Assembly (NCBI RefSeq): GCF_963921235.1
Contig: NC_086097.1
Location: 7,750,001-7,814,000, forward strand
Source of the DNA: Mobula hypostoma
Taxonomy: Eukaryota
DNA: 64,000 nucleotides
Direction: 5' to 3'
Numbering within the stretch: position 1 is the first letter of the stretch; every line of letters starts with the position of its first letter. Positions 24,234 to 59,506 of the stretch are shown here, one piece after another. The position numbers and the translations under genes were made by a program. The notes below the pieces were generated by a model. It saw only the letters and a list, made by a program, of their open reading frames with translations, ran no database searches and was not told the DNA's origin.

Positions 24234-24933
24234 AATAAATGCTTTAGGTTCCAATTTCTGGGGATGTGGCAGCCGTATAGTCCTAAAGCCAACTGCCCAG
24301 TCAGCATCAACACTTAACAACTGACAGGGAGTTTCCTACACTCCAGGAACTGGATATGCTGTTGCCATCACTTTCCATACCTGAAACCTTGGAGCAGATG
24401 GACTGCCAGACAGCACAATGTAGAACCAGCAAAGGGTATCAAATTATTATTTTTAACAAGAGACCTTTGTTTCTTCAATTCCAGAAATATATCTTCTCTT
24501 GGCATGTTTTTGGGAAACTTATAGTGTGATAAAACAAATATCACTGTGCACAAGTAGAAGAATAATAAACCACATTTGTAGAAAGGTGAAATAACATAAC
24601 CCACAATATTAACTTCAGTAAAAGGGCATGAGTTGACTTTTTCACATAAAGGCACAATTCAAGCTTTCTGGTCATTAAAGTGAGGTCTGCTTTTGAAAGG
24701 AATTGAATTATTTCCCACTCACTGCACCCAATATCAATACTCAACCACTCCCAAGCCAAGTATAGCACAGGCCAAATATCGATGTTAGCTCCATCCTTGT
24801 TTTTCAAGTGTTTCCTCATCAACATAGGACAGTTGAATTACTGTAGAGGTACAAAAGTAAGATGCCTTTGAGTTACACACATCGAAGTTGCTGGTGAACG
24901 CAGCAGGCCAGGCAGCATCTCTAGGAAGAGGTA

Positions 24934-24971
24934 CAGTCGACGTTTCGGGCTGAGACCCTTCGTCAGGACTA
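24934..24971 (-). ncRNA. Minimal type-I hammerhead ribozyme motif
   Basis: TAGTC-CTGACGA-AGGGTCTCAGCCC-GAAACGTC^GACTG on the minus strand. Confidence 0.8.
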
Positions 24972-25626
24972 ACTGAAGAAAGAGCTAGTAAGAAATTTGA
25001 AAGTGGGAGGGGGAGGGGGAGATCCAAAATGATAGGAGAAGACAGGAGGGGGAGGGATGGAGCCAAGAGCTGGACAGGTGATTGGCAAAAGGGATATGAG
25101 AGGATCATGGGACAGGAGGCCCAGAGAGAAGGAAAAGGGGGAGGGGGGATAAAACCCAGAGGATGGGCAAGGGGTATAGTCAGAGGGATAAAGGAGAGAG
25201 AGAGAAAGAATGTGTGTATGTAAATAAATAACGGATGGGATACGAGGGGGAGATGGGGCATTAACGGAAGTTAGAGAAGTCAATGTTCATACCATCAGGT
25301 TGGAGGCTACCCAGACGGAATATAAGGTGTTGTTCCTCCAACCTGAGTGTGGCTTCATCTTTACAGTAGAGTAGACCGTGGATAGACATATCAGAATGGG
25401 AATGGGATGTGGAATTAAAATTCCTCGTGTTTAAGTCCAGGACCAGCCTATTGGCTCAGGGTGTCTGACCCACCGAGAGAGAAGTTGTAAAGTTTGATGA
25501 CCACAGGCAGGAGTGACTTCCTGTCCAGGTCTTGGCTCCATCCTTCCCCCTCCTGTCTTCTCCTATCATTTTGGATCTCCCCCTCCCCCTCCAACTTTCA
25601 AATCTCTTACTCACTCTTCCTTCAGT

Positions 25627-25664
25627 TAGTCCTGACGAAGGGTCTCGGCCTGAAACGTCGACTG
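25627..25664 (+). ncRNA. Minimal type-I hammerhead ribozyme motif
   Basis: TAGTC-CTGACGA-AGG(GTCTCGG)CCT-GAAACGTC^GACTG; stems I and II pair; predicted cleavage after 25659. Confidence 0.85.
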
Positions 25665-25849
25665 CACCTCTTCCTAGAGATGCTGCCTGGCCTGCTGCGT
25701 TCACCAACAACTTTGATGTGTGTTGCTTGAATTTCCAGCATCTGCAGAATTCCTGTTCTATGCCTTTGAGTTATGTTAGCAACCTGAGGCATCCAGGTGT
25801 TGAACACTAGGGCAATTTGAAGGACAGTTTTTCAGTGATAATATTCATT

Positions 25850-26340
25850 AGTATCTGGAGTATTGCATACGGTTCTGGTCACTCCATTATAGGAAGGATG
25901 TTGAGGCTTTGGAGAGGGTGTAGAAGAACTTTACTAGGATGCTGCCTGATTAGAGGGCATGTGCTACAAAGAGAGGATGGACAAACTTGGACTGTTTTCT
26001 TTGGAGAGGCAGAGGCTGAGGAGAGATCTGATGAAGGTTTATAAGATTATCAGAGGCATAGATAGAATGGACAGACTCTTTTTTTCCCCCAGGGTTGAAA
26101 TACCTAATACTAGAGGGCATGCACTTCAGGTGAGAGGGAGTAATTTTAAAGGAGATGTGAGGGACAAGTCTTTCACACAGAGAGTTGATAGGTTCTTGTT
26201 TAGTAAAGATGTCAAACATTATGAAGAGAAGGTAGTGGAATGGGGTGAGAGGGATAATAAATTAGCCATGGTGGAATGGCGGAGAAAACTTGATGGACTG
26301 AATGGCCTAATTCTACTCCTATGTCTTACAGTCTTACAGT
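25850..26340 (+). mobile_element. CR1 LINE 3' fragment
   Basis: LGLFSLERQRLRRDLMKVYKIIRG motif; (TCTTACAG)2 tail. Confidence 0.85.
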
Positions 26341-27039
26341 TGAAGTAGAGAAGGTAGATAGTACCTGTCAGGAGTTTGTACATTCTCCCTGTTAACATGT
26401 GGGTTTCCTCTGGGTGTTCTGGTTTCCTCCCACAATCCAAAGACATACCGGTTGGTAGGATAATAGGTCAGTGTAAATTGTCTTGGGATTAGGATAGGGT
26501 TAAATTGGGGGATTGGTGGGCGGTGCAGTTCAAAGGACTGGAAGGGCCTATTCTGTGCTGTATCTCAATAAATATTTTTTTTAAATTTGCAGTTTTTTTT
26601 ACTGGAAAAATATTGAATAATAAAATGCATGGCTTTAAGGTAAGAAGGGCAAAATTTAAAGGAGAGAGTACCTGGAACTGTGGTAGAAGCAAATACAATG
26701 TTTAATTGAGACAGGCAAATGAACAGGTATGAAATTGAGGGATATTGACTGTGTGCAGGCAGATGGTATTACTGGCACAGGCATTGTAGGCCAAAGTATT
26801 TATTCCAGTGCTGAAATGTCCTGTGTTCTATGTTCTAAAACCTCCAATCAATTCATCAAACAGTACTCCAAATATTATACCTTAGTATTTTCCCAAATTC
26901 TTTGTCCGTATTTATTTAAATGAACAAAGATGTGCCTTATTTATGAAAGAACTCACTGATGACGATCAATATTATTCTTCTATGTACTTATTCTACAGAG
27001 ATTGTCAGCTTCCCACAGAAGTGGTTAGTGTGACACTAT

Positions 27040-28065
27040 GCAACACACGTAAAAGTTGCTGGTGAACGCAGCAGGCCAGACAGCATCTATAGGAAGATGT
27101 TTCGGGCTGAGACCCTTCGTCAGGACTAACTGAAAGAAACGCTAGTAAGAGATTTGAGAGGGGGAGGGGGAGATCCAAAACGATAGGAGATGGGGTACAA
27201 GTGGGAGGAAGGGCATTAACGGAAGTTAGAGAAGTCGATGTTCACGCCATCAAGTTAGAGGCTACCCAGACGGAATATAAGGTGTTATTCCTCCAACCTG
27301 AGTGTGGTTTCATCTTGACAGTAGAGGAGGCCGTGGATAGACATCAGAATGGGAATGGGACGTGGAATTAAAATGTGTGGCCACTGAGAGACCCTGCTTT
27401 CTCTGGCAGACAGAGTGTAGGTGTTCAGTGAAATGGTCTCCCAGTCTGTGCCGGGTGTCGCCAATATATAGAAGGCCACATCGGGAGCACCGGACGCAGT
27501 ATATCACCCCAGCCGACTCACAGGTGAAGTGTCGCCTCACCTAGAAGGACTGTCTGGGGCCCTGAATGGTAGGAAGTATAAGGGCATGTGTAGCACTTGT
27601 CCTGCTTACAAGGATAAGTGCTGGGAGGGAGATTAGTGGGGAGGTATGGGGGGAGGGGGAACGAATGGACAAGGGAGTCGCAAAGGGAGCGATCCCTGCG
27701 GAAAGTGGGGGGGCAGGGGAGGGAAAGATGTGCTTAGTGGTGGGATCCCATTGGAGGTGGCGGAAGTTACGGAGAATTATATGTTGGACCTGGGGGCTGC
27801 TGGGGTGGTAGGTGAGGACCAGGGGAACCCTATTCCTAGTGGGGTGGCAGGAGGATGGGGTGAGAGCAGATGTGTGTGAAATGGGAGAGATGCGTTTGAG
27901 AGCAGAGTTGATGGTGGAGGAAGGGAAACCCCTTTCTTTAAAAAAGGAGGACATCTCCTTCATCCTGGAATGAAAGGCCTCATTCCTCCCTCACCACCAT
28001 TCAGGACCCCAGACTGTCCTTCCAGGTGAGGCGACACTTCACCTGTGAGTCGGCTGGGGTGATAT
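27040..28065 (-). mobile_element. Penelope-like element with deletions and a short 5' inversion (about 27983-28065 on +)
   Basis: GIY-YIG ORF 27310-27540; the + piece TTCCTCCCTCACCACC...GGGGTGATATA is the reverse complement of 27500-27570; hammerhead at about 27097-27128 lacks the 3' strand of stem I. Confidence 0.9.
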
Positions 28066-29114
28066 ATAATAAATAAGAAGATTCAACACTCAACTATTGT
28101 TACAACAGTAATAACAATAAATAAAGAATGAATATCAAGAACACGAGATGAGGAATTCTTGAAAGAGAGTACAGTTCAGTAGGAGCATTTTAGTGATGCG
28201 GCGAATGAAGTTATCCCCTCTGGTTCAAGAGTTTGGTGGTTGAGGGGTAATAACTGTGCCTGGTCATGTGAATACCTTTTTCCTGAAAGCTGCGGAGAGA
28301 AGAGAGCATGGCCTAGGTGGTGGAGGTCCATGATGACGGATGCTGCTACTTGATGGATATTATTAAACATAAGAAATAAATAGGAGCAGGAGTAGGCCAT
28401 CTAGTCCATCGAGCCTGTTCCACTATTCCATAAGATCATGGCTGATCTGGCCATGGACTCATCTCCACCTACCTGCCTTTTTCCCATAACGCTTAATTGC
28501 CCTGCTCTGCAAAAATATATCTAACCTTGTCTTTTTTAAGAACTGTAACTGGTGAACAGATGCATTTCTGTGTTCTGCAATACCAAATCATTTGAAACAA
28601 TAAATATTTTATTTGAAATGCTCTCAAGATGTACTAAACCCAGCAACGCACAGCAGCAAACCCCTTTCCTGCACAGTAAGAACACTTTGAAGCATTGGCT
28701 ACTCTCATGTTCAAAACATTGACGACGAGCTCCATTCAATAGAAGCAAGGTTTTGGGAGGAAAAGGTAGGATGCTTTCCAAAGGAATCAGGATTAAAGGT
28801 GAAGATGTTTGAGGATCAATGGTGTTGAAGAGAACAAATGATGAGACAAAAAAGACAAGATTCCAAGCAAAAATATCTGCCTTGTACACAGTACTTGATC
28901 ATATCGGATTTAAAACTAAGCTAACAACCAGTTGTCCTTACCAACCAGAATAAGATAAATTAACACCTATACAGTACATCACAGGAATTTGATTTACATA
29001 CATTATAAGAGCTCTAAGACTGCTTTAGCAACACAAATAAATTCAGTGCATTTGGGTAAATTTCAAAAGAAACATTGAACAAACATACAAAATATATTCT
29101 GGTGTGTATCATCT

Positions 29115-29570
29115 TATGTCAGGATGAGGCCACCCTCACTGTGAAGGAGCAACACCTTATATTCCATCTGGTTAGCCTCAGACCAGATGGTTAGAATATT
29201 GATTTCTCCCTCCAGTAAACAAATTCAACCCACCATCTCTTCCTCTATTCCCCACCTTGACATTTTACCTCTTCTCACCTGCCTATTACTTTCCTCTGTG
29301 TCCCCTCCCCCATCCCTTTCTCCTATGGTCCATTCTCATCTCCTATCAGATTCCTTCCTCTCCAGCCCTTTACTTTTCCTACCCAGTTGGCTTTACCTAT
29401 CACCTTTTAGCTATCTTCTTTCCCCAATCCTGACCTTTTTATTCCCGCATTTTCCCCCTTCCATTCCCGTCCTGAAGAGGGGCCTTGACCCGAAACTTCG
29501 ACTATCTATTCATTTCCATAGATGCTGCCTGACCCGCTGAGTTCCTTCAGCATTTAATGTGTCTTACACA
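29115..29570 (+). mobile_element. Older Penelope-like 3' fragment with degenerate hammerhead
   Basis: QDEATL...EQHLIF end of the endonuclease; GTC-CTGAAGA-GGGGCCTTGACCC-GAAACTTC-GAC at about 29469-29503. Confidence 0.75.
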
Positions 29571-29699
29571 AAAAATCTTTTCCGAGGCTAGAATGAGCAT
29601 CCATGTGGAGAATTGGAAAAATGCGTCTGGAACAGGGAAACTCCAGGTTTTGCTACCTGGTTTAAAACTCAGGCCAAATTGGATAGAACAAAACTAATC

Positions 29700-30557
29700 T
29701 TGGGAAGTGTTGTGGATGGTGTGGAGGGCTGTCAGAGGTTACAGTGGGACATTGATAGAATGCAAAACTGGGAAGAGAAGTGGCAGATGGAGTTCAACCC
29801 AGATAAGTGTGAGGTGGTTCATTTTGGTAGGTCAAGTATGATGGCAGAAAATAGTTTTAATGGCAAGACTCTTGGCAGTGTGGAGGATCAGAGGGATCTT
29901 GGGGTCCGAGTCCATAGGACGCTCAAAGCAGCTGCGCAGGTTGACTCTGTGGTTAAGAAGGCGTACGGTGTATTGGCCTTCATCAGTCGTGGAATTGAAT
30001 TTAGGAGCCGAGGGGTAATGTTGCAGCTATATAGGACCCTGGTCAGACCCCACTTGGAGTACTGTGCTCAGTTCTGATCGCTTCACTATAGGAAGGATGT
30101 GGAAGCCATAGAAAGGGCGCAGAGGAGATTTACAAGGTAATTGCCTGGATTGCGGAGCATGCCTTATGAGAATAGGTTGAGTGAACTCAGCCTTTTCTCC
30201 TTGGAGCGACGGTGGATGAGAGGTGACCTGATAGAGGTGTATAAGATGATGAGAGGCATTGATCATGTGGATAGTCAGAAGAGGACACAGGTTTAAGGTT
30301 CTGGGGAGTAGGTACAGAGGAGATGTCAGGGGTAAGTCTTTTACTCAGAGAGTGGTGAGTGTGTGGAAAGGGCTGCCAGTAACAGTGGTGGAGGCGGATA
30401 CGATAGAGTCTTTTAAGAGACTTTTGGATAGGCACATGGAGCTTAGTAAAATACAGGGCTATAGGTAAGCCTGGTAATTTCTGAGGTAGGGACATGTTCG
30501 TCACAACTTTGTGGGCCGAAGGGCCTGTATTGTGCTGTAGGTTTACTATGTTTCTAT
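29700..30557 (+). mobile_element. CR1 LINE 3' part (second subfamily); another copy at about 31876-32498
   Basis: WQMEFNPDKCEVVHFG, RDLGV, LYRTLVRPHLEYCAQF; (TTTCTATG)n-like tail. Confidence 0.92.
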
Positions 30558-30687
30558 GAAGTCACAACTCATTTCCAGTGGGGGTGGGGTGGGAATAAGG
30601 CTGATAGGATTCATGGTTTTCCTAATGTTCTTTTTGTAACTTGTAGCTTGTGGCTCACCTTCATTCCAACACCTGGTACACAGCCTC

Positions 30688-30990
30688 TGCTATGATTCGT
30701 AACTTCAAAACATTAAACTAATTCCTGGGAAGACATGAGAGTCTGAAATGAGACCAGAAGACCATATGACATAGGAGCAGAAGCAGGCCATTTGGCCCAT
30801 CGATAAATGTGAGTCCAACTTTGGGTTTACTTTAAGTGAGGCGCATGCATATCATGTGGTAGCGTGATGACTTATGCAATTCACGTATTTATACATATTC
30901 CCTGTAATAAATTATTTAAATGAACTGGAATGCTTATTCAATATATAGACATGATTATTCAAATATTATTTAAATATTAAATACACAAGA
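30688..30990 (-). mobile_element. Solo LTR with 5-bp TSD, containing a ~50-bp CR1 3' scrap at 30752-30803
   Basis: Starts TGCTATG, ends CACAAGA (CA end mutated); GCCTC direct repeat at 30683-30687 and 30991-30995. Confidence 0.65.
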
Positions 30991-35899: not shown

Positions 35900-37865
35900 T
35901 GCATTACAGCATTGCCGCCTAGTATGGACGGGCCACTGCACAGAATCAGAAAAGGCTGCAGAAAATTTCAAACTCAGCCAGCTTCACCATGGTCACTAGC
36001 CTCGCTAGCACCGATGACATCTTCAAAAAGGCGGCGTTTATTACACAGGACATGTCCTTACAGCATTGTTACCTTCAAGCGGAGGTACATGAGCCTGAAT
36101 AAACACGCTCAACATTTCAGGAATAGTTCATTTCAAACTAACATGTCTCCCTGTCTAAACCCAGTTCACTTTCCCTACTAGTGGGTGAACAATTCAACAC
36201 TTGGTGACTTCTGCTTCAGGATTACAAGCAAAAGAAAATCTGCAGATGCTGGAAATCTGAGCAACACACACAAAATGCTGGAGGAACTCAGGAGGCCAGG
36301 CAGTATCTATGGAAAAGAGTACAGTCGACGTTTTGGGCTCTGCTTCACAATGGTAGGACAGTGGACAATCCCTAAAAAGCTACCTCACTTATTTATGTTA
36401 TATATAAATATAAACAAATAAACACATACATATTTATATATTTCTTATTGCCTTTGAATGTCAACTGTGGTGCTTATCTACTCAAATTCTATTTTCCCAT
36501 TAGATTCATACCCCTTTATTGCTTTCCTATCCAAGTTCGTCCAAATTCCTTTTAAACATTGTCTTCATGTTTGCCTTTATTACTTCCTCTACCAGTGCTT
36601 TGCATATGTTCACTACCCCTTGTGTGAAAAATCTGCCTCTAAAATCTCTTTTGAATTTGTTCCCTCTCAACTTCAAGTTCAGCCTTCTAGGTTAAGCTCC
36701 CCTGCCCATGGAAGAAAGATTCTGATTACTTATCCTACCTTTGCCCCTCATAATTTTGCAAACCTTGATAAGGTCAATCCTCAGTCTCCTCCACGCCAGA
36801 GAGAGCAAACCCAAACCATCCAAACTCTCCTTGGATCTACTGCCCTTCAATCCAGGCAACATCCTGGTGAATCTCTTCTGCACTCTCTATTGCTATTAAG
36901 TTTTTCGTGTAGTGTGATACCCAGAACAGTAGGTAATATTATAGTATTCTGAATGTAATCTTTTTGAAATCCATGAAAGTCATTTCTTTTGCATTCCCAT
37001 CTCCTTGTATGACAAATAAGTATAAACCTCTTCATATGGGCACCATGGTAGCATGGAAATTAGCCTGACATTATTACAGCTCAGGGCACCAGACTTCAGT
37101 GTTCAGTTCCAGCAATGAAAGGAGTTATAAGGAGATTGCACATCCTTTGCATGAACCACGTGTGTTTCCTCCAAGTGCTCCCGTTTCCTCCCTTATTCCA
37201 AAGACATGCCAGTTTGTATGTTAGTTAGTCATTGTAAATTGTACTGTGATTAGACAAGGTGTGTTGCTGGACGGTGCGGCTTGGTGGGGCAGAAGGGCTT
37301 GTTCCATGCCGTATCTCTAAATAAATAAATTTGGATAAAGGGAACACATGTTCAGCTGTTCACTAAGTTTTTTTTTCTCCCTTTGTTCACCTTCTTCATT
37401 CCTACTCCAAGCCTGCTTCCATCTGGTCATCATCCCCCTCCCATTTGTTTCCACCCATGTTCTACCAGTCTTCATCTCACTACCCCACCTTCTCTCCCCC
37501 TCTCTTCATACTGCTATATCCTGGAAATCCTTTCAATTCCTTCTTAGTCCTGATCAGGGTCTAGACTGGAAATGTCAGGAAAAATACCACCTTTTTCTTC
37601 CATAGATCCTGCGGGACTCACTATATTCTGTCTGTTCCTAGTTCTCATACCTGCAGTGTCTTTTGTTTTCATCTTAACAATACTGCCTGCTTATCTGGCA
37701 ATCCACTACCATTTCCAAATCTATTCTCTCCTCTACCGGCATACTGTGTCTAACTGTCATGTAGTGCATTGAAGCAGCTCACTGAAGTTTTTCTTTTAAC
37801 AAGTACCACACAAATCCTCCTGTCTATAAAGTGAAGGAAAGCAGGTTCAGGAAATTGCTGACCAT

Positions 37866-38125
37866 AAACACAAGAGATTCTGCAAATGCTGGAAATCCAG
37901 AGTAACACACACAAAATGCTGGAGGAACTCAGCAGGTCAGGCACCATCTAGGACACTGAATAAAGAATCAATATTTTAGGCCGAGACCCTTCTTCAGAAA
38001 CTGACCCTTCATCATATTCTGATAAAAGGTCCTGTCCCAAAACGATGATGGCTTGTTCCTTTGTATAAATGCTGCCTGATCTGATGAGTTCCTTAAATAT
38101 TTTGTATGGGTTACTCAGATTTTCC
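37866..38125. mobile_element. Short fold-back element made of two inverted Penelope-type hammerhead tails
   Basis: Minus tail 37866-38002 (GAGACCCTTCTTCAG) followed by plus tail about 38015-38125 (CTGATAAAAGGTCC...CCCAAAACG...TGCTGCCTGATCTGATGAGTTCC). Confidence 0.7.
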
Positions 38126-38329
38126 TGTAGGCTCTCGGCCTCTGTGAGTCACTTTCTATCAGTGCTCACTTTTCTTTGCCGGGAAAAATTCTTTGAAATC
38201 CTCTATCTGAAGGAAAAAAGAATCAAGATCAAAATGAAGTTTAATATTACTGGCAAATGTCATGAAATTTGCTGTTTTGCAGCAACAGTACATTGAAATA
38301 CATCATGATATAACTACTATAAATGACAA

Positions 38330-40672: not shown

Positions 40673-42260
40673 TATTACCCTGCAGTTGACTTAAATTATC
40701 TAAATTCTGAGACTATTTTAGCTCTGAATTACTAAACAACTAAACTTGCTTGATTTTCCAAGTTGCACTTTTCTTTGATAATTCCCCTATCATATAAAAT
40801 GCAGAATGATTGTCTCAGAACAGAAGCGTGGAACAATGTGTAACACGGCTTAGATTTTAAACTCATGAGGCTGAACTGTAGCTAACAAATCCATGTGAAG
40901 ATCGATAAGAGGCTAATTGCTGGCACTAGTGTGTTCCATCTGTAAATGGGAGTCAATTTGACAATTTCCAGCTCCTCTCCAAGGTCAGATGAAACCAATA
41001 GGAAATAATACCCTCTTTATTAAAGTTGCTGCTCGGGTCTCTTGGCAGTCCCATACTTGTGAATTTCAGTGTTAAATCATCAGAAGTGCCTCTTTTAAAC
41101 TCAGACAACGCATCAAGGCTTTGCCAAATTGTGCAGAAGACCAGACCACATTTTGATGATGTACTGAAAAATATTTCTAATGACCTTTTCTCCCTTGAAC
41201 AACACCGACAAACAACATAGCACAGCTAGTTTTCTATTTGTGAAAATGCTCTGGATAATAGAGTCATAAAAATGTTATTGAGAACCACAGTCAAGAAATA
41301 GGTCCTTTGGCTCATCTAGCCCATGCCAACTCTTGCCTTAAATTTGGTTGATAGTTTCCTGTGTCTATTTATATGAACACAATTGACTGGATCTGAAGTA
41401 CACTGGATTGTAAGAAATTATATGCATATCCATATTTCATATAATTGTCTTTATTTTTACTTCATTGTTAAAAGGAAACATTGTCAATATCTATCAGTTT
41501 TTATTTAATCTAATGAGTTACAAGAATTGCTTTTCTCAGTAGAGTAACCAATCCTTTATGTAAACTGATCCTTAAAGCAAATTGGACTAATATAAAACAG
41601 AATGTGTATTTGTGAATTTGCTTTCCAATTTTAAAACAATTTTTTTTTGTGATTGCATTTTTTGTATGCATGAGTCTCGAACCACTTTGACCACCTATAT
41701 GGTTTTGCACCCCAAAAACTGGTAGACTATAAGAGTACCCTTATAAGTAATCGACAGGTCAGGCAGCATTTGTTCTGATGACAGTCTGTTGACTGAATTG
41801 TTAATTCTGTTTCTCTGCCTACAGATACAGCCTGACTTTCTGAATATTTCCAAAATTTCCTGTAATATATTTTCTTTTCACTCATAGCATAAACAAGAGA
41901 AAATCAGCAGTTGCTGGAAATCCAAGCAACACACACAGAATGCTAGAGGAACTCAGCAGGCCAGGCAGTATCTAGCAAAATACAATGATGCAGGAACTCA
42001 GCAACAAAAACAATGGTACAGAAACATGGCAACACACTAAAATGGTGCAGGAAACCCTTTGACTTACATTTTTCCATATGTGCTGCCTGGCCTTCTGAGG
42101 TCCTGCAGAATTTTGTGTGTTTTGCTTTTTCACTTTTTTTTCTATTTTTGATACTATATCATTCCTTTGACTAGAACCACATTCAACAATATATTCAAGC
42201 AACACACACAAAAATTGCTGGTGAACGCAGCAGGCCAGGCAGCATCTCTAGGATGAGGTA

Positions 42261-42298
42261 CAGTCAACGTTTCAGGCCGAGAACCTTCGTCAGGACTA
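42261..42298 (-). ncRNA. Minimal hammerhead motif (cleavage triplet GUU variant)
   Basis: TAGTC-CTGACGA-AGGTTCTCGGCCT-GAAACGTT-GACTG on the minus strand. Confidence 0.75.
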
Positions 42299-43156
42299 AC
42301 TGAAGGAAGAGCTAGTAAGAGATTTGAAAGTGGGAGGGGGTGGGGGAGATCCGAAATGATAGGAGAAGACAGGAGGGGAGGGGTGGATCTAAGAGCTGGA
42401 GGAGGGAGAGGATCGTGGGATGGGAAGCCTGGGGAGAAAGAGAAGGGGGGAGGAGAGCCCAGCGGGTGGAGAGCAGGCAAGGAGTTATACTGAGCGGGAT
42501 AGAGGGAGAGAAAAGAGAGAGAGAAAAGAAAGGGGAAAAATATATAAAAATATATATTAAATAAATAAATAAGGGATGGGATGTGAAGGGGAGGAGGGGC
42601 ATTAGCGGAAGTTAGAGAAGTCAGTGCTCATGTCATCAGGTTGGAGGCTACTCAGATGGAATATAAGGTGTTGTTCCTCCAACCTGAGTGTAGCCTCATT
42701 TTAACAGTAGAAGAGGCCGTGGATAGACATATAAGAGCGGGAATGGGACGTGTCAAGATGAAGCCACACTCAGGTTGGAGGAACAACACCTTATATTCTG
42801 TCTGAGTAGCCTCCAACCTGATGGCATGAATATTGACTTCTCAAACTTCCGCTAATGTCCCTCCTCCCCTTCATACCCTATCTTTTATTTATTTATTTGA
42901 TATATTCTTTATATATTTTTCCCCCTTTCTTTTCTCTCTCTTTTTTCTCCCTCTGTCCCTCTCACTATAACTCCTTGCCTGGTCTCCACCCGCCGAGCTC
43001 CCCTCCCCCCTTCTCTTTCTCCCCAGGCTTCCCATCCCACGATCCTCTCCCTCCTCCAGCTCTTAGATCCACCCCTCCCCTCCTGTCTTCTCCTATCATT
43101 TCGGATCTCACCCACCCCTTCCCACTTACAAATGTCTTACTAGCTCTTCTTTCAGT

Positions 43157-43194
43157 TAGTCCTGACGAAGGGTCTCGGCCCGAAACGTCGACTG
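43157..43194 (+). ncRNA. Minimal type-I hammerhead ribozyme motif
   Basis: TAGTC-CTGACGA-AGGGTCTCGGCCC-GAAACGTC^GACTG; predicted cleavage after 43189. Confidence 0.82.
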
Positions 43195-44289
43195 TACCTC
43201 TTCCTAGAGATGCTGCCTGGCCTGATGCGTTCACCAGCATTTTTTGTGTGTGTGTTGCTTGAATTTCCAGCAACTGCAGATTTCCTCATGTCAGCGTTTT
43301 TAAATTCAACAATATATTGGTGATTTCATGCCCAACGATTCAGGGGCAGTTTGTCCACCTTTGCCACGAGATGCCTGAATGGACATTGAATCTCTGAACT
43401 CTTCCTCACTACTTGTCTTTCTCTTTTTGCACTTCTTATTTAATTTGACTATACACGTATTCTTTGGACTGTAATTTGTACTGCTGCCGCATTTCGATAA
43501 ATTTCATGACATATGCTGATGATATTAAACCTGATTCTGATACAGCCCACTGATACAAATTCAAGATTAAATATCTATGTACAAACTTTTATGTGCACAG
43601 GCGCCACAGTAGCATAGCAGTTAGCGTGACACTTTTACAGCTCGAGGCAGCAGAAATATAAAAATTTACACAGCACCAAATGAAGAAAAGATTACATGGA
43701 TGGTAGGGGTACGGAGGGCTATGGTCCCAGCACATGTCGATGAGACTAGGCAGCTTAAATGGTTTGGCATGGACTAGGTGGGTTGAGGACCTGCTTCTGT
43801 ACTATATTTCTTTGTGACTCTATTAGGAAGAATGTTAGAGTTTTGCCTGTGAAAAAGGCTTGAAGAAGGATTCTGAAGGAGAAAATGAATTCCTGAGTCT
43901 AGTGTAAGTTAAAATAGAGGAAGAGTTGAAGGGAGACTGAATCACCCTTGCTCATTTTCCTTGTAGTGGAAGTTGCTGAGGGGGATCTGATTGTGGTAAA
44001 ACAAATTGTTAGGGGATAAGACATATTTCCCCATTGTAGGTGAGGCAGGAGGATTAAGGTGAAATGGAAAAGGTTCACAAGGAATCTTAAGAAGAATATT
44101 TTCCTCAGGGTGGTTAGAAGCTGACAACAGTCAAGAAACATCTGGATCCCCGTAAAAACATATGGGGGTAGGAAGTTTAAATGATTTGGCATGGACTAGA
44201 TGGGTGAAAGGCTTGTGTTGTATTTTTCTATGACTCTGTGACTCTATATGCGTGTGATAAATTGGAATAGATTAGATTGGTACTTGTTT

Positions 44290-52572: not shown

Positions 52573-53743
52573 GCTGCAGACCAGACTTCCACTCACCTGA
52601 ACGTGGACCAGAGAGTGGCATTGCCGTACTGACGGATTCTTCATGCAGTCTAATGAACAGATAAATCTGCAGAGGCTGGATCCTGAAGCAAATGCTGAAA
52701 TGCTGGACGGACTCAGCCAGTCAAAGCTTCAGGTTGAAGACCTTGTATGCCTTCCACTCCCACATCTCCTTATTCTGGTTTCTTCCCCCTTCCTTTACAG
52801 CCCTGAAGGAGGGTCTTGGCCTGAAACATTGACTGTTCATTCATTTTTATATATACCGCCTGACTTACTGAGTCCTTCCAGCATTGTGTGTCTGTTACTG
52901 AAGATCTGCACTGTATTTCTGCAGAACGTTCTTCAAGGTGAAAGAGATTAAGCACTTCATCAGATTGTTAATGGTACAAAAAACACCAAAGTCATTTGCT
53001 TGCATTATTTGTAAATTAACAAAACCTTTATGACTAGTCTTATCACAATCACCTTTCAATAACCTTAGCAAACTACAGTAATGAACCATGCAACTAACAA
53101 ATTCATCAGTTGTATGTCTTAACTCAGAGAGAAAGAAACTCAGAGCTGCTCGATGGGAAATTTCTTATTGCTGACTGTTTTATAATCTTGCCGTCTGAAA
53201 TCTGTTTTTTTAATTGGCTTTGATTGGTTGTGAGCAATGCAAATATGTTCCATTTCATTGAGTGCACCCTGAGGCAGTCAATACTTCAATATTACTTGGC
53301 TTTCTGGAGCAGCTAGCCTCACTGGCAGATAATCCATTAAAATAGGTCAATGTAGTCTGAGAACCGAAGGTTGCGACCTTGCCTCTGGCCCATCCTTTTT
53401 CTAAAGAGTCTGGTCACCCAAATGGATTGGAAATCCCCTTATGGTTAGTCACTTTGTGAGTTCATGCAGATCTACTGAGTGGATTTTAAATACCTGAACT
53501 GACAATTGAGAGCAACCTGATGAACCACCAGAATGAAAGGAAATGTTCCTGGCCGTTGTTTGGTGTGACTAAATAGGAGGCTGTACCTTCAAGGTTCAAA
53601 GCTCAGGATTTTCCAGTACACAAGTGGAAAGGAGAATGAAATATTATTAATCTGGATCTGATGCAGCCCAAAAAGAACACAATAAAATGAAGAACACAAT
53701 GATAAAAAAACAATAAATATAAATACATAAATTAGCATACATA

Positions 53744-53814
53744 CAGTACTGTGCAAAAGGTTTATGTCTATATATATATATGGCTCGAGTGCCTAAGGAT
53801 TTTACACAGTACTC
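53744..53814. mobile_element. 71-bp Tc1-type MITE (degenerate second copy about 55753-55810)
   Basis: TA-CAGTACTGTGCAAAAG ... TTTTACACAGTACTC-TA inverted ends around a (TA)n core. Confidence 0.7.
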
Positions 53815-54069
53815 TATCTGTCAACGTGGGGCCAACAACAAGTTTGTAAATCTTGTGGAAGCAAAAGATGTTGAGAATGGTGAGGGGTGTTGCGCCATGG
53901 GAGGGGTGTGGGGCAGGTAGCAGAGAAGGAGTGTTGGGGTGGGGGGGGGGTGGATAGCATGGGTTCAGACCCACCCAGCCCTGAGACACCAGGCAAGGAC
54001 ATTTGCTTTATTGATCATTGCAGAATGTGTCTCTGGTGCTTCCCGCTCTCTCCACTCCCACTCTCGGTC

Positions 54070-55650
54070 CACAGGTGAGAAGACAGCTGAAACGTCTCAA
54101 CACAGGTGAGAAGGCAGCTGAAACGTCTCAACCCAAGCAAGGCTGCAGGACCGGATGGTGTCAGTACCAGGGTGCTCAAAGCCTGTGCCCTTCAGCTGTG
54201 TGGAGTACTTCGCCGTGTATTCAACCTGAGCCTGAGGCTCCGGAGGGTTCCTGTGCTGTGGAAGACGTCCTGCCTCGTCCCTGTGCCGAAGACGCCGCGC
54301 CCCAGCGGCCTCAATGACTACAGACCGGTGGCATTGACCTCCCGCATCATGAAGACCCTGGAGAGACTTGTTCTGGAGCTGCTCCGACCTATGGTCAGGC
54401 CACACTTAGATCCCCTCCAGTTCGCCTACCAGCCTCGACTAGGAGTTGAGGATGCAATCGTCTTCCTGTTGAACCGTGTCTACGCCCACCTGGACAAGCC
54501 AGCGAGCACTGTGAGGGTCATGTTTTTTGACTTCTCCAGTGTGTTCAACACCATCCACCCTGCTCTGCTGGGGGAGAAGCTGACAGCGATGCAGGTGGAT
54601 GCTTCCCTGGTATCATGGATTCTTGATTACCTGACTGGCAGACCACAGTACATGTGCTTGCAACACTGTGTATCTGACAGAGTGATCAGCAGCATTGGGG
54701 CTCAACATGGGACTGTCTTGTCTCCCTTTCTCTTCACCATTTACACCTCGGACTTCAACTACTGCACAGAGTCTTGTCATCTTCAGAAGTTTTCGGATGA
54801 CTCTGCCATAGTTGGATGCATCAGCAAGGAAGATGAGGCTGAGTACAGGGCTACGGTAGGAAACTTTGTCACATGGTGTGAGCAGAATTATCTACAGCTT
54901 AATGTGAAGAAGACTAAGGAGCTGGTGGTAGACCTGCGGAGAGCTAAGGTACCGGTGACCCCTGTTTCCATCCAGGGGGTCAGTGTGGACATAGTGGAGG
55001 ATTACAAATACCTGGGGATACGAATTGACAATAAACTGGACTGGTCAAAGAACACTGAGGCTGTCTATAAGAAGGGTCAGAGCCGTCTCTATTTCCTGAG
55101 GAGACTGAGGTCCTTTAACATCTGCTGGACGATGCTGAGGATGTTCTACGAGTCTGTGGTGGCCAGTGCTATCATGTTTGCTGTTGTGTGCTGGGGCAGC
55201 AGGCTGAGGGTGGCAGACACCAACAGAATCAACAAACTCATTCGTAAGGCCAGTGATGTCGTGGGGATGGAACTGGACTCTCTCACGGTGGTGTCTGAAA
55301 AGAGGATGCTGTGTAAGTTGCATACCATCTTGCTCAATGTCTTCCATCCACTACATAATGTACTGGGTGGGCACAGGAGTACATTCAGCCAGAGACTCAT
55401 TCCACCGAGATGCAGCACTGAGCGTCATAGGAAGTCATTCCTGCCTGTGGCCATCAAACATTACAACTCCGCCCTTGGAGGGTCAGACACCCTGAGCCAA
55501 TAGGCTGGTCCTGGACTTATTTCATAATTTACTGACATAATTTACATATTACTATTTAACTATTTATGGTTCTATTAATATTTATTATTTATGGAGCAAC
55601 TGTAACGAAAACCAATTTCCCCCGGGATTAATAAAGCATGACTATGATAA
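54070..55650 (+). mobile_element. Young 5'-truncated Rex1/Babar LINE
   Basis: Open RT ORF, AT-rich 3' UTR, AATAAA at 55630-55635; 31-bp tandem duplication at the 5' junction. Confidence 0.93.
54106..55503 (+). CDS. Rex1/Babar reverse transcriptase (ORF2 C-terminal part, 465 aa open)
   Basis: KAAGPDGV, DYRPVALTS, LDPLQFAYQP, FFDFSS, GTVLSPFLF, KFSDDS, YKYLG motifs without stops. Confidence 0.92.
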   Translation: MRRQLKRLNPSKAAGPDGVSTRVLKACALQLCGVLRRVFNLSLRLRRVPVLWKTSCLVPVPKTPRPSGLNDYRPVALTSRIMKTLERLVLELLRPMVRPHLDPLQFAYQPRLGVEDAIVFLLNRVYAHLDKPASTVRVMFFDFSSVFNTIHPALLGEKLTAMQVDASLVSWILDYLTGRPQYMCLQHCVSDRVISSIGAQHGTVLSPFLFTIYTSDFNYCTESCHLQKFSDDSAIVGCISKEDEAEYRATVGNFVTWCEQNYLQLNVKKTKELVVDLRRAKVPVTPVSIQGVSVDIVEDYKYLGIRIDNKLDWSKNTEAVYKKGQSRLYFLRRLRSFNICWTMLRMFYESVVASAIMFAVVCWGSRLRVADTNRINKLIRKASDVVGMELDSLTVVSEKRMLCKLHTILLNVFHPLHNVLGGHRSTFSQRLIPPRCSTERHRKSFLPVAIKHYNSALGGSDTLSQ

Positions 55651-57859
55651 TAGAGACCCATATCGAAATCAGGTTTATCATTACTCACATATGTCATGAA
55701 ATTTGTTTTTTTTTGTGGCAGCAGTACAGTGTAATACATAAAATTACTAAAATGCTGTGAAGTCTCAGGCACCCTTGATACATATATGAGACTTTTGCAT
55801 CGTGCTGTACAGAGATTAATTGTATGTCCATAAAGTGACACTATGCACAGGAGTGTCAAGTATATTCTTCAGCAGCAAGGCAGACAGTGCCATGTTGTGT
55901 TTGTTTTGTTTCCTTCAAATAAAATATGTGCAGATTTCATTGGCACCCAGTTGGCATAGTATTTATCACCTTTTCAGAATTATAATTTTCAGACTGTGGA
56001 GGTTTAGCTTCATATAAACATTGCTCACAATATAAGGAAGGGTTTGGGTGACGGAGAGCACTCTAGAAAACCCACCGCTTACACATGAGCATTCACTCAC
56101 ATGCAGCCATTGCCTTGTCATTCTGCTGTTGTCGCGGTGAGTGTGCATACTTCAATGTCTTTCCCAGTACGCCCAGTGTTTTCCCCTCCACATTGTTACA
56201 TACATTCAGTTAGACACCAAAGTTTACTTTCATTCTAAACTGAGCTGGTATTCTCGGGTTGGCTTTGTGGTGCCTTTCCCACTGTGAGTAGCAGAATATT
56301 TCATTTCTTTAGTAATGGGGGTGTGTAAAAGTGTATATGCTATTTGTATACTGTACTTAATGTACATACTTCTGCTTATTTTCTAATATGATTATAACTA
56401 CATTGTGGGGTGCATCATATTCTAATTCATGTGTCATATTATGTTAACTTTATTGGTAATTAACGACGGTATGTCCTAGAGTGAAAAAAAACTCATCGCC
56501 GTCAGTAAGGGAGAGAGAGAGAGATTGGGGCTGCCAGGAGTTCTTACTGGAGAAAATAGTATGGTAGTATTCTTGTGTTTTCTGGTAGATATCATTTTGT
56601 GAATGTTGGCATTTTTCTTTTCACTATTTTCTCTAATGAACACCCTTACACTGAAGTGCTAAGTGACGTCAGCCATTTCTCTTGGGTCATAACTCAGGTA
56701 TCGAACATTTTAATTATTTTATACATTGTTATTGAGGACAATATCTTGATTTTACCTCCACTTTGCTCCCAACAAGGACTCGCTTCCTGGCAGCTTACAA
56801 GTCAATCACAGTAATATGGGTCTGCAGTCAGGTGGAGGCCAGCAAGGAAAGCAGGTCAGATTTCTTTCCCTCATTGGCATTTATAAAGTAATATGGGCTA
56901 GTTCCTACGACAAAATAGTGCTCTTTACTACAACTACCTGTATTTTTCACTCAGACTATCAATTTAAATTTTCAATTGCCCATTAAATGAATTTGAACTG
57001 GAGTCCCTGGATTAGAATCAGAATCAGGTTTACTATTATTGGTATATTTTGTGAAATTTGTTGTACAATTTAATACATAATTTTGAAAAACAATAAATTA
57101 TATATGTATATAAATTATAAAAGAGTAGTGCAAAAATGGTAAGGTAGTGTTCAAGAGTGCATTGTCCATTCAGAAATCTGATGGCAGAGGGGGAGAAGCT
57201 GTTCCTGAAACTTTGAGTGTGTGTCTTTAGACTCCTGTACTTCAGTAAAGACCTGTATTTATGGTGAACGGAGAAGCCATCAAACTGCAGCACTGCATCC
57301 AAAATGGTGGGAGGTTAGCCATGTTTCTGTGAAGCAAAGTTCACAGAAGTCCCTGATGTCCCTGATTATTATGAGTCCTGACCTTGGAAGTATGAATCAG
57401 CACTGCATATTTGTTTGTGAGAATATTTATTTTTGTGTTTTTAATTTATCATTCACTGTGATATCACTCTGATCATAAGAAGTAAATCTAGAAATATTTA
57501 TCTAGTCAGGCAGCACCTGCAAAAGGAGACAAAATTAATGTTTCATGTCTGAGACCCTTCATCACCTGTGGCTCCCAAAGTTGAAGAATTAACTGTTTCT
57601 ACTTCTGCAGAAGCTTCCTGACCTGCTGAGTGCTTTAGTTTTAGTTTCAGTTTTAGAGATTCAGAACAATAACAGGTCCTTCTAGCCCAATGAGCCCGTA
57701 TACAATTATATAAAAATTTGTTTGTGCATTCAAATTTGTTTGGCAGTTGTTAAATGAGTTACTTTTATTAGTTCACTCTCAGCAGAGCAAAATGTACATT
57801 TTCTTATTAACTAGCCTTCTAAATATTTTGCTTGGTATTTGCTATCACTATCTGCCTCT

Positions 57860-58104
57860 CTGTAACCACACCATGGACTGCCCCAACCCCAGCTGCAAAA
57901 GGAGGAAAGTTGGCCAAGGGGCTAGCAACCCCATCCGATAAAAACCCAGAGCTACAGAAACACCAACAGAAGATCCAAAGGCTTCATTCCTAGAAGAGAA
58001 AGAATATACCAGCAAGCTGGGCTACCTGCAAGACAGGCTCAGGACAGAGAAATCTGGCAAGGTGCTGTCGGTGCCCCATGCCATGTAGGGATGATGAGCT
58101 TAAG
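57860..58104 (+). mobile_element. Short RTE-type non-autonomous element with degenerate twister-like head
   Basis: Head CCCCAACCCCAG...AAAGGAGGAAAGTTGG-GGGGCTAGCAACCCCATCC; tail AQDREIW-like RTE C-terminal coding remnant. Confidence 0.55.
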
Positions 58105-58627
58105 AGAGAAGGGAAATGCACCTCACTGCAGATATCCTTGTATGTCATAGTAGCTATGCATCCTCAAGCATCCATTAAATAACTGGTACTTTCTCCAACC
58201 ATGCTTCCAATTGGATTCATCTCCAAAGGTTTTAAACCATTCCCACATTTCTCCATCAACTGATCTCACCCAGCAACATAATGCTGATTCTTTGGATGAT
58301 CCTGACGTCCCCTTTCTCTCGCCCACACTCATTATTGACACCACCTTAAGTTCCCTTACACCAAAGACTCTCTCTTCCACTTTGATCACGGAGCTGCCTT
58401 GTTTCCTCCACCTGTTCTCAAACAATAATCGGGCTTTGTTCTTCACACAGCAGAGAACTTAAACTGCCTGTAGCCTCAGAGAAAAGCAGCACAGGCTTCC
58501 CCACATGGTATAGACTTAATGTGCCTGTTGAGATAAAACAAGAATTTCAAAGCCGATATTCTGTAAATTCAGACCAGAAACAAACTGACCTGGAGAGCCA
58601 CCTAATACCAGACTAATTCTTTGTGCG

Positions 58628-59506
58628 CAGACATGAGGAAAGCTGCAGATGCTGGAAGTTCAAGCAACACGCACAAAAAGTGTTGGTGAACACATCAGGC
58701 CAGGCAGCATCTATAGGAAGAGGTACAATCGACGTTTTGAGCCGGGACCCTTCATCAGGACGAACTGAAAGAAGAGATAGTAAGACATTTGTAAATGGGA
58801 GGGGGTGGGTGAGATCCGAAATGATAGGAGAAGACAGGAGGGGAGGGGTGGATCTAAGAGCTGGAGGAGGGAGAGGATCATGGGACAGAAAGCCTGGGGA
58901 GAAAGAGAAGGGGGGAGGGGAGCTCGGCGGGTGGAGAGCAGGCAAGGAGTTATAGTAAGAGGGACAGACGGAGAAAAAAGAGAGAGAGAAAAAAATGGGG
59001 AAAAAAAATATATATTAAAAAATATTAAATAAATAAATAAGGGATGGGGTGTGAAGGGGAGGAGGGGCATTAACAGAAGTTAAAGAAGTCAGGTTGGAGG
59101 TTACCCAGACGGAATATAAGATGTTGTTCCTCCAACCTGAGTGTGGCTTCATCTTGACAGTAGAGGAGGCCATGGATAGGCGTATCAGAATGGGAATTAA
59201 AATGTGTGGCCACTGGGAGATCTTGCTTTCCCTGGCGGACAGAGCGTAGGTATTCAGCGAAACTGTCTCCCGGTCTGCGTCGGGTCTCGCCAATATATAA
59301 AAGGCCACATCGGGAGCACCGGACGCAGTATATCACCCCAGCCGACTCACAGGTGAAGTGTCGCCTCACCTGGAAGGACTGTCTGGGGCCCTGAATGGTG
59401 GTGAGGGAGGAAGTGTAAGGGCATGTGTAGCACTTGTTCTGCTTTGACTGTACCTTTTCCTATAGAGACTGCCTGGCCTGCTGCGTTCACCAGCATTTTT
59501 TGTGTG
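58628..59506. mobile_element. Penelope insertion: minus arm 58628-59444 plus short inverted tail 59446-59506
   Basis: GIY-YIG ORF 59070-59369; 14-bp direct repeat TAATTCTTTGTGCG (58614-58627) / TAATCCTTTGTGCG (59507-59520); hammerhead at 58726-58763 has a GAAA>AAAA change. Confidence 0.92.

What the first reader, a model, noticed from the sequence alone, without database searches (positions are those of the whole stretch)
24876..59506. The two arms of each inverted insertion carry different diagnostic variants
Seen: the right arm 25520-25757 shares GCAC, ACTCAC and CCTGTT variants with the separate copy at 22667, while its partner arm has GTAC and CTAG. The right arm 42751-43303 shares ACAAATGTC, CTCACCC and CCTGATG with the long arm at 58628, while its partner has CCTGCTG and TCAAATCTC. 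At 58628-59506 the long arm has CCTGATG and the short arm CCTGCTG. Inference: arms are not fold-back copies of one sequence. They come from two RNAs, or from two different repeats of a tandem master. A two-RNA integration complex would fit a hammerhead that needs to dimerise through its ACGU palindrome.
Basis: partly seen in the sequence, partly recalled or inferred. Interest (0 to 1): 0.8.

Follow-up and report, generated by a model that had tools for sequence, protein, structure and literature searches.

The report
Inverted Penelope-like retroelement insertions, mismatched arms
These are head-to-head double insertions of a Penelope-like jumping gene, and their anatomy shows that each half was copied separately from RNA rather than one half from the other, usually from the same source but sometimes from two different ones.

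Summary
The repeat is the 3' part of a very abundant Penelope-like retroelement (PLE). It has a reverse transcriptase plus a C-terminal GIY-YIG domain in one frame, and a minimal hammerhead that lacks helix III.

All three inverted insertions in the window are bounded by target-site duplications (TSDs). Each has one arm with a 37-40 nt "tail" and one arm without it.

I examined 100 further inverted pairs from the same genome.
- 86 are tail+/tail-, and 63 have a clear TSD.
- The tail-less arm is the longer one in 38 of 63 TSD pairs. Neither arm of those 38 pairs can be a copy of the other, so a simple fold-back does not fit them.
- At 25 non-CpG marker sites, partner arms disagree at 8.5%, against 39.5% for shuffled partners.
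- Partner arms share rare variants about 16 times more often than non-partner arms.
- They are tree sisters in 11 of 25 cherries, against 0.28 expected by chance.

So "each pair carries different diagnostic variants" is an over-generalisation. Still, 6-8 of 62 TSD pairs have arms from different subfamilies. Pair 1 here is one of them: each arm is 97-99% identical to at least 39 other copies, but the two arms are only 94% identical to each other. In those pairs one integration event used two templates.

The inverted structure and the tail are already known for PLEs. The hammerhead-dimer link is untested.

The parts
24862..24875 (.). Left TSD of pair 1 (ATGCCTTTGAGTTA)
   Evidence: Read. Identical 14-mer at 25760-25773.
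24876..25522 (-). Pair 1, tail-less arm. About 645 nt, of subfamily 'E' (CTAGC, GTAC). It ends at the GTGTG run.
   Evidence: In one search, four other loci align over query positions 1-645, so 25422-25522 is element interior and not filler. In one search, 39 other copies are 97-98% identical over the terminal 223 nt.
25520..25759 (+). Pair 1, tail-bearing arm. About 240 nt, of subfamily 'B' (CCAAC, CTCAC, GCAC). The tail is at 25723-25759.
   Evidence: In one search, 39 other copies are 97-99% identical. Only 94% identical to its partner (I3).
25760..25773 (.). Right TSD of pair 1
22661..23498 (-). Separate solo copy, tail-bearing, of the same 'B' subfamily as the right arm of pair 1
   Evidence: (I2, 94%)
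42182..42195 (.). Left TSD of pair 2 (TTCAACAATATATT)
   Evidence: The same 14-mer lies at 43305-43318.
42196..42750 (-). Pair 2, tail-less arm. It ends at ...GTGTGTTGCTTG.
   Evidence: In one search its best genomic match is its own partner (95%).
42751..43304 (+). Pair 2, tail-bearing arm. The hammerhead core CTGACGA lies at 43162-43168, with the predicted cut after 43189. About 10 extra bases lie between the tail and the TSD.
   Evidence: In one search its 42-nt haplotype is unique in the genome.
43305..43318 (.). Right TSD of pair 2
58617..58627 (.). Left TSD of pair 3 (TTCTTTGTGCG)
   Evidence: The right copy, TCCTTTGTGCG at 59510-59520, has one mismatch.
58628..59445 (-). Pair 3, long tail-bearing arm. 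It includes the remnant of the C-terminal GIY-YIG domain (open frame 59070-59459, - strand).
   Evidence: Pfam GIY-YIG at E 0.2, below cut-off. 23 of the 30 best ESM Atlas clusters belong to the set that carries GIY-YIG, on about a third of their members.
59446..59507 (+). Pair 3, short tail-less arm (62 nt). It starts at the first base after the predicted hammerhead cut.
59510..59520 (.). Right TSD of pair 3

Best explanation
**What it is.** The repeat is the 3' part of a Penelope-like retroelement (PLE). Each inverted pair is one integration event and is bounded by an 11-16 bp target-site duplication (TSD).

**How a pair forms (inferred).**
- Two separate reverse-transcription runs are primed from the two strands of the staggered target cut.
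- One run starts at the outermost start site. It gives the arm with the 37-40 nt tail, whose end is precise.
- The other run starts about 20-45 nt further in, at the GU-rich stretch. It gives the tail-less arm, whose end is ragged.
- Each run stops at its own point, which is the 5' truncation.
- The two cDNA ends are joined head to head with 0-4 nt of overlap or filler.
- Neither arm is copied from the other.

**Where the templates come from (inferred).** The two templates usually come from one source. That could be the same RNA, two transcripts of one locus, or two units of one multi-copy transcript. Most partner arms therefore carry the same subfamily haplotype. In roughly one event in eight the templates belong to different subfamilies. 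Pair 1 of this window is such a case. Pair 2 may be one. Pair 3 is too short to tell.

**Shown here:** the anatomy, the TSDs, and the concordance and discordance statistics.

**Inferred:** priming on both strands, the two start sites, and the identity of the templates.
For: **Identity of the element.**
- A long copy (L132) has a 925-aa open frame. Within it, RVT_1 matches residues 416-578 and GIY-YIG matches residues 828-902.
- The hammerhead core is read.
- The tail and the inverted 5'-truncated copy are described for PLEs in PMC8557442 (passages) and PMC3846280 (passages).

**One event per pair.**
- Set 1: 27 of 50 pairs have a TSD score of 9 or more, where the 99th percentile of the null is 8.
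- Set 2: 37 of 50 pairs score 11 or more, where the 99th percentile of the null is 7. 29 of those 37 are perfect.
- All but one of these TSD pairs are tail+/tail-.

**Arm ends.** Tail+ ends lie 0-7 nt from the reference end. Most tail-less ends lie 21-45 nt short of it, and some up to 150 nt short.

**Independence of the arms.**
- The tail-less arm is longer in 38 pairs, the tail+ arm in 19, and 6 are about equal.
- Junctions are symmetric in only 4 of 36 pairs.
- The overlap or filler at the junction is within 4 nt in 31 of 36 pairs.

**Same source in most pairs.**
- Marker mismatch is 75/886 (8.5%), against 39.5% with SD 2.4 for shuffled partners. The lowest of 2,000 shuffles was 32.3%.
- Shared rare variants: 13 per 9,463 columns for partners, 2 per 23,630 for non-partners.
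- 11 of 25 cherries are partner pairs, against 0.28 expected by chance.

**Different templates in some pairs.**
- 8 of 62 pairs have more marker mismatches than the background rate predicts, at P<0.01.
- Their TSDs abut both arm ends.
- Each arm of pair 1 is 97-99% identical to 39 other copies, yet the arms are 94% identical to each other.
- No other locus spans the junction of pair 1.

**In vitro precedent.** A PLE protein cleaves and extends both target strands, starts at two adjacent internal sites with the tail lying between them, and is predicted to form a dimer (PMC11167929, Main text read in full).
Against: **Limits of the sample.**
- The 100 pairs come from two narrow classes: pairs with 400-430 nt between one motif pair, and pairs with 20-50 nt between another. 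Both classes require exact 14-mers in both arms, which favours young copies and short pairs.
- Only the last 165-250 columns of each arm were compared.

**Limits of the statistics.**
- The background rate used for the P-values (2.9%) comes from non-marker sites. With a rate of 5.6%, estimated from the concordant pairs, L113 and L127 become marginal. About 6 pairs then remain robust.
- The test [quoted passage not shown] exceeded 3 in only 1 of 62 pairs. The panel was too small for that test.
- After correcting for trimming bias, TSD mismatches imply roughly the same divergence as the arms show. The TSDs therefore give no independent proof that arms differed at birth.

**Observations that fit other routes.**
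- Seven of the 50 pairs in set 2 fall into three groups that share a junction at different loci. This suggests that some pairs are re-copied as units, or that junctions have hot spots.
- The tail+ arm of L084 looks mosaic, which would also fit gene conversion or template switching.
- 19 pairs with a longer tail+ arm and 4 symmetric junctions remain compatible with fold-back.

**Weak identification.** Both Pfam domain hits fall below the gathering cut-offs. Rfam finds no hammerhead.
Confidence: 0.7

Rival explanations
1. Self-priming or fold-back. One cDNA or RNA folds back and serves as template for the second arm. The arms are then identical at birth, and every difference between them is later decay. 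This is the model proposed for PLE inverted repeats in PMC3846280.
For: Most pairs are concordant at marker sites. Partners share rare variants. 4 of 36 junctions are symmetric, and several junctions in the list are near-palindromes. The tail+ arm is the longer one in 19 pairs. The proposal itself was read as passages.
Against: In 38 of 63 TSD pairs the tail-less arm reaches further inward, so each arm holds sequence that the other lacks. 6-8 of 62 pairs have arms of different subfamilies. Each arm of pair 1 has closer relatives elsewhere in the genome than its partner.
Confidence: 0.1
2. Later gene conversion. Both arms came from one template. One arm was afterwards overwritten, wholly or in patches, by another genomic copy.
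For: The tail+ arm of L084 is B-type with a C-type patch at columns 131-146. The right arm of pair 2 shares four rare variants mainly with the long arm of pair 3, only 15 kb away. That haplotype is otherwise unique in the genome.
Against: The right arm of pair 1 is B-type over its whole length, including its subfamily-specific tail. It is 99% identical to distant copies but only 94% identical to the nearby B-type copy at 22661. Discordance runs along the whole arm in L131 and in pair 1.
Confidence: 0.1
3. Unit propagation. An inverted pair, once formed, is transcribed and re-inserted as a whole. Differences between the arms are then inherited from a master pair, and the ragged tail-less end is an ordinary 5' truncation.
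For: Identical junctions occur at different loci with different TSDs: L083/L089/L128, L101/L102 and L125/L126. In the trio the tail-less ends differ, lying 71, 31 and 50 nt short of the reference end. L101 and L102 share the same differences between their arms.
Against: 43 of the 50 junctions in the complete set 2 are unique. No other locus spans the junction of pair 1. In L101 and L102 the tail sits on opposite arms.
Confidence: 0.08
4. Two unrelated insertions that merely lie next to each other or are nested.
For: 8 pairs of set 1 (4 with two tails, 4 with none) have no TSD. Several of them join different PLE families.
Against: 63 tail+/tail- pairs have TSDs that flank the whole pair, with scores far above the null. 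The three window pairs have TSDs of 11-14 nt.
Confidence: 0.02

Closest known systems
Canonical endonuclease-containing Penelope-like elements (Penelope/Poseidon type), as described in PMC8557442, PMC3846280 and PMC11167929
   Same: - A single frame with a reverse transcriptase followed by a C-terminal GIY-YIG domain.
- Heavy 5' truncation.
- An inverted 5'-truncated copy next to the main copy.
- A 30-40 bp tail at only one end.
- Short TSDs.
- A hammerhead motif in the terminal repeat.
   Different: - Which PLE clade this family belongs to was not determined here.
- The measurements on arm independence and on mixed-subfamily arms appear in none of the four PLE papers I read. These were the Main text of PMC11167929 and passages of PMC8557442, PMC3846280 and PMC4209133.
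- They also appear in none of the listings of four literature searches.
L1 twin priming (recalled from Ostertag and Kazazian 2001; not read here)
   Same: A second priming event from the other target strand gives an inverted segment inside one TSD-bounded insertion.
   Different: In L1 the two cDNAs copy different parts of one RNA, which gives an inversion with a deletion. Here both arms cover the same 3' region of the element. That region must therefore have been copied twice, or from two templates.
Minimal dimeric hammerheads of PLEs (Cervera and de la Pena 2014, PMC4209133)
   Same: CUGANGA, a 4-bp helix II, GAAA, then C-G with no loop before U-C. Helix III can therefore form only between two copies, through the ACGU palindrome.
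   Different: Activity and dimer formation were not tested. Rfam models do not detect the motif.

Membership tests
Penelope-like elements (EN+) | Reverse transcriptase and C-terminal GIY-YIG endonuclease in one open reading frame | tested here: inconclusive
   In the 925-aa frame of L132, RVT_1 matches residues 416-578 (E 4.8e-5, 23.6 bits, cut-off 29.6) and GIY-YIG matches residues 828-902 (E 9e-4, 19.9 bits, cut-off 22.6). The order and spacing are right, but both hits fall below Pfam's cut-offs. The window fragment matches GIY-YIG at E 0.2, and the ESM Atlas places it with GIY-YIG clusters. No solved relative was found.
Penelope-like elements (EN+) | Inverted and/or direct terminal repeats (pLTRs), with an inverted 5'-truncated copy inside one TSD | tested here: met
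   Three TSD-bounded inverted pairs lie in the window. Pattern searches found 224 and 50 inverted pairs genome-wide, with 0 matches to the controls. 64 of 100 fetched pairs have clear TSDs.
Penelope-like elements (EN+) | A 30-40 bp tail present at only one end of the insertion | tested here: met
   86 of 100 pairs have exactly one tail-bearing arm. The tail is 37-40 nt long.
Penelope-like elements (EN+) | Reverse transcriptase of the telomerase-related PLE clade | not tested
   No phylogeny of the reverse transcriptase was made.
Minimal (dimeric) hammerhead ribozyme of PLEs | Conserved core CUGANGA...GAAA...UH, with helices I and II, no helix III, and a palindrome at positions 15.2-16.2 | tested here: met
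   Read: CTGACGA, then GGGTCTCGGCCC, then GAAA, then CG, then TC, with the cut before GACTG. Helix I pairs AGTC with GACT. The descriptor features come from PMC4209133 (passages).
Minimal (dimeric) hammerhead ribozyme of PLEs | Self-cleavage, as a dimer | not testable with these tools
   No match to any Rfam family at E of 10 or less. No RNA data were examined.
Fold-back (self-primed) inverted duplication | The second arm contains nothing that the first arm lacks | tested here: not met
   In 38 of 63 TSD pairs the tail-less arm reaches further inward than the tail-bearing arm. The window's pair 1 has arms of 645 nt (tail-less) and 240 nt (tail-bearing).

The most novel reading that the evidence does not exclude
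The PLE integration complex routinely holds two separate template RNAs, one for each target strand. They may be held together by the intermolecular helix III of the minimal hammerhead. Mixed-subfamily pairs would be the visible trace of this. Concordant pairs would simply reflect two transcripts of the same master. On this reading the hammerhead's role in PLEs is to pair templates, not to process them.
Probability: 0.25. Interest if true: 0.7.

Novelty: new member of a known kind. Interest (0 to 1): 0.4.

Why it matters
How Penelope-like elements transpose is still called undefined in the literature (PMC8557442, passages). Self-priming has been proposed for their inverted repeats (PMC3846280, passages). 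Extension of both target strands has been seen only in vitro (PMC11167929, Main text read).

The copies in this genome act as a natural experiment.
- The anatomy of several dozen TSD-bounded pairs argues against one arm being copied from the other.
- A minority of pairs with arms from two subfamilies shows that one event can draw on two templates.

This gives a concrete, countable prediction for an in vitro assay with two labelled RNAs. It also gives a way to measure how strongly the element prefers a single source.

For the window itself, the result is ordinary repeat annotation.

Tried and rejected
- **Random sampling.** Later searches could not cut out loci for that reason.
- **First comparison of set 2.** It seemed to show many pairs with 5-10 differences. 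Most of these lay at columns 63-81 and were artefacts of splitting the arms at the midpoint. After trimming they vanished. I do not use the numbers.
- **Nearest-neighbour inequality test.** It had too small a panel to detect even pair 1.
- **Asymmetry of rare states between tail+ and tail- arms.** None was found: 142 against 161, chi-square 49.2 with 39 degrees of freedom, p 0.13.
- **TSD mismatches as a clock.** Biased by the detection rule, so not used.
- **Excess of arm starts at the hammerhead cut site in set 1.** By my reading of the arm starts, about 5 of roughly 100 arms start there, against about 3.4 expected. I do not count this as an excess.
- **Rfam and the solved-structure sequence search.** Neither found anything.
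- **Earlier notes of this scan.** Nothing relevant.

Full report
**What the repeat is**

The window is a 64-kb piece of a 3.48-Gb eukaryotic assembly. The repeated sequence is the 3' part of a retroelement.
- Its longest copy in the window (58628-59445, - strand) runs from the remnant of a protein domain into a non-coding region of about 600 nt. That region ends in a GT-rich run and a 37-40 nt terminal stretch.
- The open frame at 59070-59459 (-) carries a GIY...YIG signature. Pfam gives GIY-YIG at E 0.2, below its cut-off. 23 of the 30 best ESM Atlas clusters belong to the set that carries that family, on about a third of their members.
- A long copy elsewhere in the genome (L132) has a 925-aa open frame. 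In it, RVT_1 matches residues 416-578 (E 4.8e-5) and GIY-YIG matches residues 828-902 (E 9e-4). Both are below Pfam's cut-offs, but they lie in the order that defines endonuclease-containing Penelope-like elements (PLEs).
- About 75 nt before the GT run lies CTGACGA-GGGTCTCGGCCC-GAAA-CG-TC. This is a hammerhead core with helices I and II but no helix III. It matches the "minimal" PLE hammerhead, which is thought to act as a dimer (PMC4209133, passages).
- Rfam does not detect the motif.
- The family is huge, with 171,721 first-look candidates for the C-terminal domain.

**Checking the observation**

The three inverted insertions have TSDs of 14, 14 and 11 nt. One further regularity was not in the finding. 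In each pair one arm carries the terminal 37-40 nt "tail", and the other arm stops at or just after the GT run.

- **Pair 1.** The difference between the arms is real and large.
  - The tail-bearing right arm has 39 other genomic copies at 97-99% identity.
  - The tail-less left arm has 39 others at 97-98%.
  - The two arms are only 94% alike.
  - The stretch 25422-25522, which looked like filler, is element interior, because four other loci align across it.
  - No other locus spans the junction of pair 1.
- **Pair 2.** The arms are each other's best or near-best match in the genome.
  - The right-arm variants are rare.
  - The 42-nt stretch holding four of them is unique in the genome at 1 mismatch or fewer.
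  - They are shared chiefly with the long arm of pair 3.
  - Four shared rare non-CpG states are very unlikely to arise by chance. By my own rough estimate about 0.14 would be expected.
  - The right arm of pair 2 and the long arm of pair 3 therefore share some ancestry that the left arm of pair 2 lacks.
  - This is not a genome-wide subfamily marker, and local gene conversion is a live alternative.
- **Pair 3.** It offers one informative site in 62 nt.

**A wider sample**

Random 10-kb stretches were a poor source of pairs. Two palindromic pattern searches worked well.
- A motif pair separated by 400-430 nt gave 224 inverted pairs genome-wide, with none for the control pattern. I fetched the first 50 listed (set 1).
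- An inner motif pair separated by 20-50 nt gave 50 pairs, again with none for the control. I fetched all of them (set 2).

Of these 100 pairs, 86 have one tail-bearing arm and one tail-less arm, 4 have two tails and 10 have none.
- TSDs well above the null were found in 27 pairs of set 1 (score 9 or more, null 99th percentile 8).
- They were found in 37 pairs of set 2 (score 11 or more, null 99th percentile 7; 29 of them perfect).
- All but one of these TSD pairs are tail+/tail-.
- Tail-bearing ends are precise, lying 0-7 nt from the reference end. Most tail-less ends lie 21-45 nt short of it, and a few up to 150 nt short.

**Are the arms copies of each other?**

No, for most pairs, on structural grounds.
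- Among the 63 tail+/tail- pairs with TSDs, the tail-less arm reaches further into the element in 38. The tail-bearing arm does so in 19, and 6 are about equal. The binomial test of 38 against 19 gives p 0.016.
- In those 38 pairs one arm has extra sequence at its outer end and the other has extra sequence at its inner end. Neither can have served as template for the other.
- Junctions are symmetric in only 4 of 36 pairs of set 2. They carry 0-4 nt of overlap or filler in 31 of 36.
- This speaks against the self-priming model proposed for PLE inverted repeats (PMC3846280, passages).
- It fits the in vitro finding that a PLE protein cleaves and extends both target strands and starts at two adjacent internal sites, with the tail lying between them (PMC11167929, Main text).

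**Do partner arms carry different variants?**

Mostly not. I aligned 257 arms and trimmed the junction-side ends, after an artefact showed the need. I then compared the 62 TSD pairs that share at least 60 columns.
- Arm-to-arm divergence is 4.4%, or 3.3% outside CpG sites.
- At 25 non-CpG columns where the minor allele reaches 10%, partners disagree at 75 of 886 sites (8.5%). With shuffled partners the rate is 39.5% (SD 2.4), and the lowest of 2,000 shuffles was 32.3%. Other non-CpG sites disagree at 2.9%.
- Partners share states that are rare in the panel at 13 per 9,463 columns, in 9 of 62 pairs. Non-partner arms of identical marker haplotype share them at 2 per 23,630.
- On a tree of 90 arms built without CpG-prone columns, 11 of 25 cherries are partner pairs, against 0.28 expected by chance. 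The maximum in 2,000 shuffles was 3.
- Rare states are not loaded more heavily on either kind of arm: 142 against 161.

The two templates of an event therefore usually come from one source.

**A minority is mixed**

- Eight of the 62 pairs have more marker mismatches than the background rate predicts, at P<0.01. They are L084, L129 and L131 (5 of 15 each), L059 (4 of 13), pair 1 of the window (4 of 21), L030 (3 of 8), and L113 and L127 (3 of 15 each).
- With a more cautious background rate of 5.6%, taken from the concordant pairs, L113 and L127 become marginal. This is my own arithmetic on the counts.
- In all of the seven genomic pairs among these, the TSD abuts both arm ends.
- Pair 1, L084 and L131 differ at the linked double change CTAGC/CTCAC. 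Pair 1 and L131 differ along the whole arm, whereas L084 differs in a patch (columns 131-146).
- The tail sits on the 'B' arm in pair 1 and on the 'E' arm in L131. A fixed order of two repeats in one master is therefore not obvious.

**What remains open**

- Sequence alone cannot separate one RNA copied twice, two transcripts of one locus, and two units of one multi-copy transcript.
- Seven of the 50 pairs in set 2 fall into three groups that share a junction at different loci with different TSDs. Some pairs may therefore be re-copied as units, or junctions may have hot spots.
- The tail+ arm of L084 looks mosaic. That would fit template switching or conversion.
- The sample is limited to two length classes and to the last 165-250 columns of the element.
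- The hammerhead-dimer idea was not tested at all.

**Comparison with what is known**

- The inverted 5'-truncated copy, the one-sided tail, the TSDs and the hammerhead are textbook PLE features (PMC8557442, PMC3846280, PMC4209133; passages read).
- The two start sites and the extension of both target strands are published in PMC11167929 (Main text read).
- Three measurements appear in none of these four papers, nor in the listings of four literature searches:
  - that the tail-less arm is often the longer one;
  - that partner arms are strongly but not perfectly concordant;
  - that about one pair in eight mixes subfamilies.
- Those searches cover only open-access papers and preprints. I did not read supplements.

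**Verdict**

The arms are not fold-back copies, and two templates are used in at least some events. But differing arms are the exception, and the hammerhead link is conjecture.
- The object itself is a new member of a known kind of element.

Noticed in passing
window 59446: The short arm of pair 3 begins at the first base after the predicted hammerhead cut (GUC|GACUG), as if its template RNA had been cleaved there. In set 1, by my reading of the arm starts, starts near this site were not clearly enriched (about 5 of roughly 100 arms, against about 3.4 expected).
   Followed up: partly
L083, L089, L128; L101, L102; L125, L126: Identical head-to-head junctions recur at different loci with different TSDs. 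In the trio the same arm carries the tail, and the tail-less ends differ (71, 31 and 50 nt short of the reference end). In L101 and L102 the tail is on opposite arms, yet the same two rare variants sit on the same arm. Some inverted pairs may be re-copied as units.
   Followed up: partly
L084 (tail-bearing arm): The arm is B-type at its markers and in its tail but carries C-type states at alignment columns 131-146. It also shares a unique variant with its partner. This is a mosaic that could come from template switching or from gene conversion.
   Followed up: no
window 42751-43304 and 58628-59445: These two tail-bearing arms lie 15 kb apart and share four rare non-CpG variants. The 42-nt haplotype of the first is found nowhere else in the genome at 1 mismatch or fewer. 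Possible causes are a local source copy or local gene conversion.
   Followed up: partly
window 43295-43304: About 10 bases (CGTTTTTAAA) lie between the end of the tail and the right TSD of pair 2. Their origin is unknown.
   Followed up: no
window 29109-29565, 36225-36338, 37866-37997, 38019-38115, 41891-41974, 63596-63659: Fragments of related but distinct families share the same terminal layout and have variant hammerhead cores. Examples are CTGAAGA...GAAAC and the ending ...GAGTTCCTCCAGCATTTTGTGTG. Several set-1 pairs without TSDs join this family to the main one.
   Followed up: no
G000:C91:71175246-71202038: Three copies 98% identical to the left arm of pair 1 lie 12-14 kb apart on one contig. 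This may be a tandem segmental duplication.
   Followed up: no
sets 1 and 2 (L029-L131): The tail-less arm is the longer arm twice as often as the tail-bearing arm (38 against 19, p 0.016). The run that starts at the inner site seems to travel further.
   Followed up: partly
L039, L049, L071, L076: Both arms stop aligning to the window's reference copies at nearly the same point, with 180-267 nt between them. This is probably a sub-group with a different interior, possibly a non-autonomous derivative.
   Followed up: no
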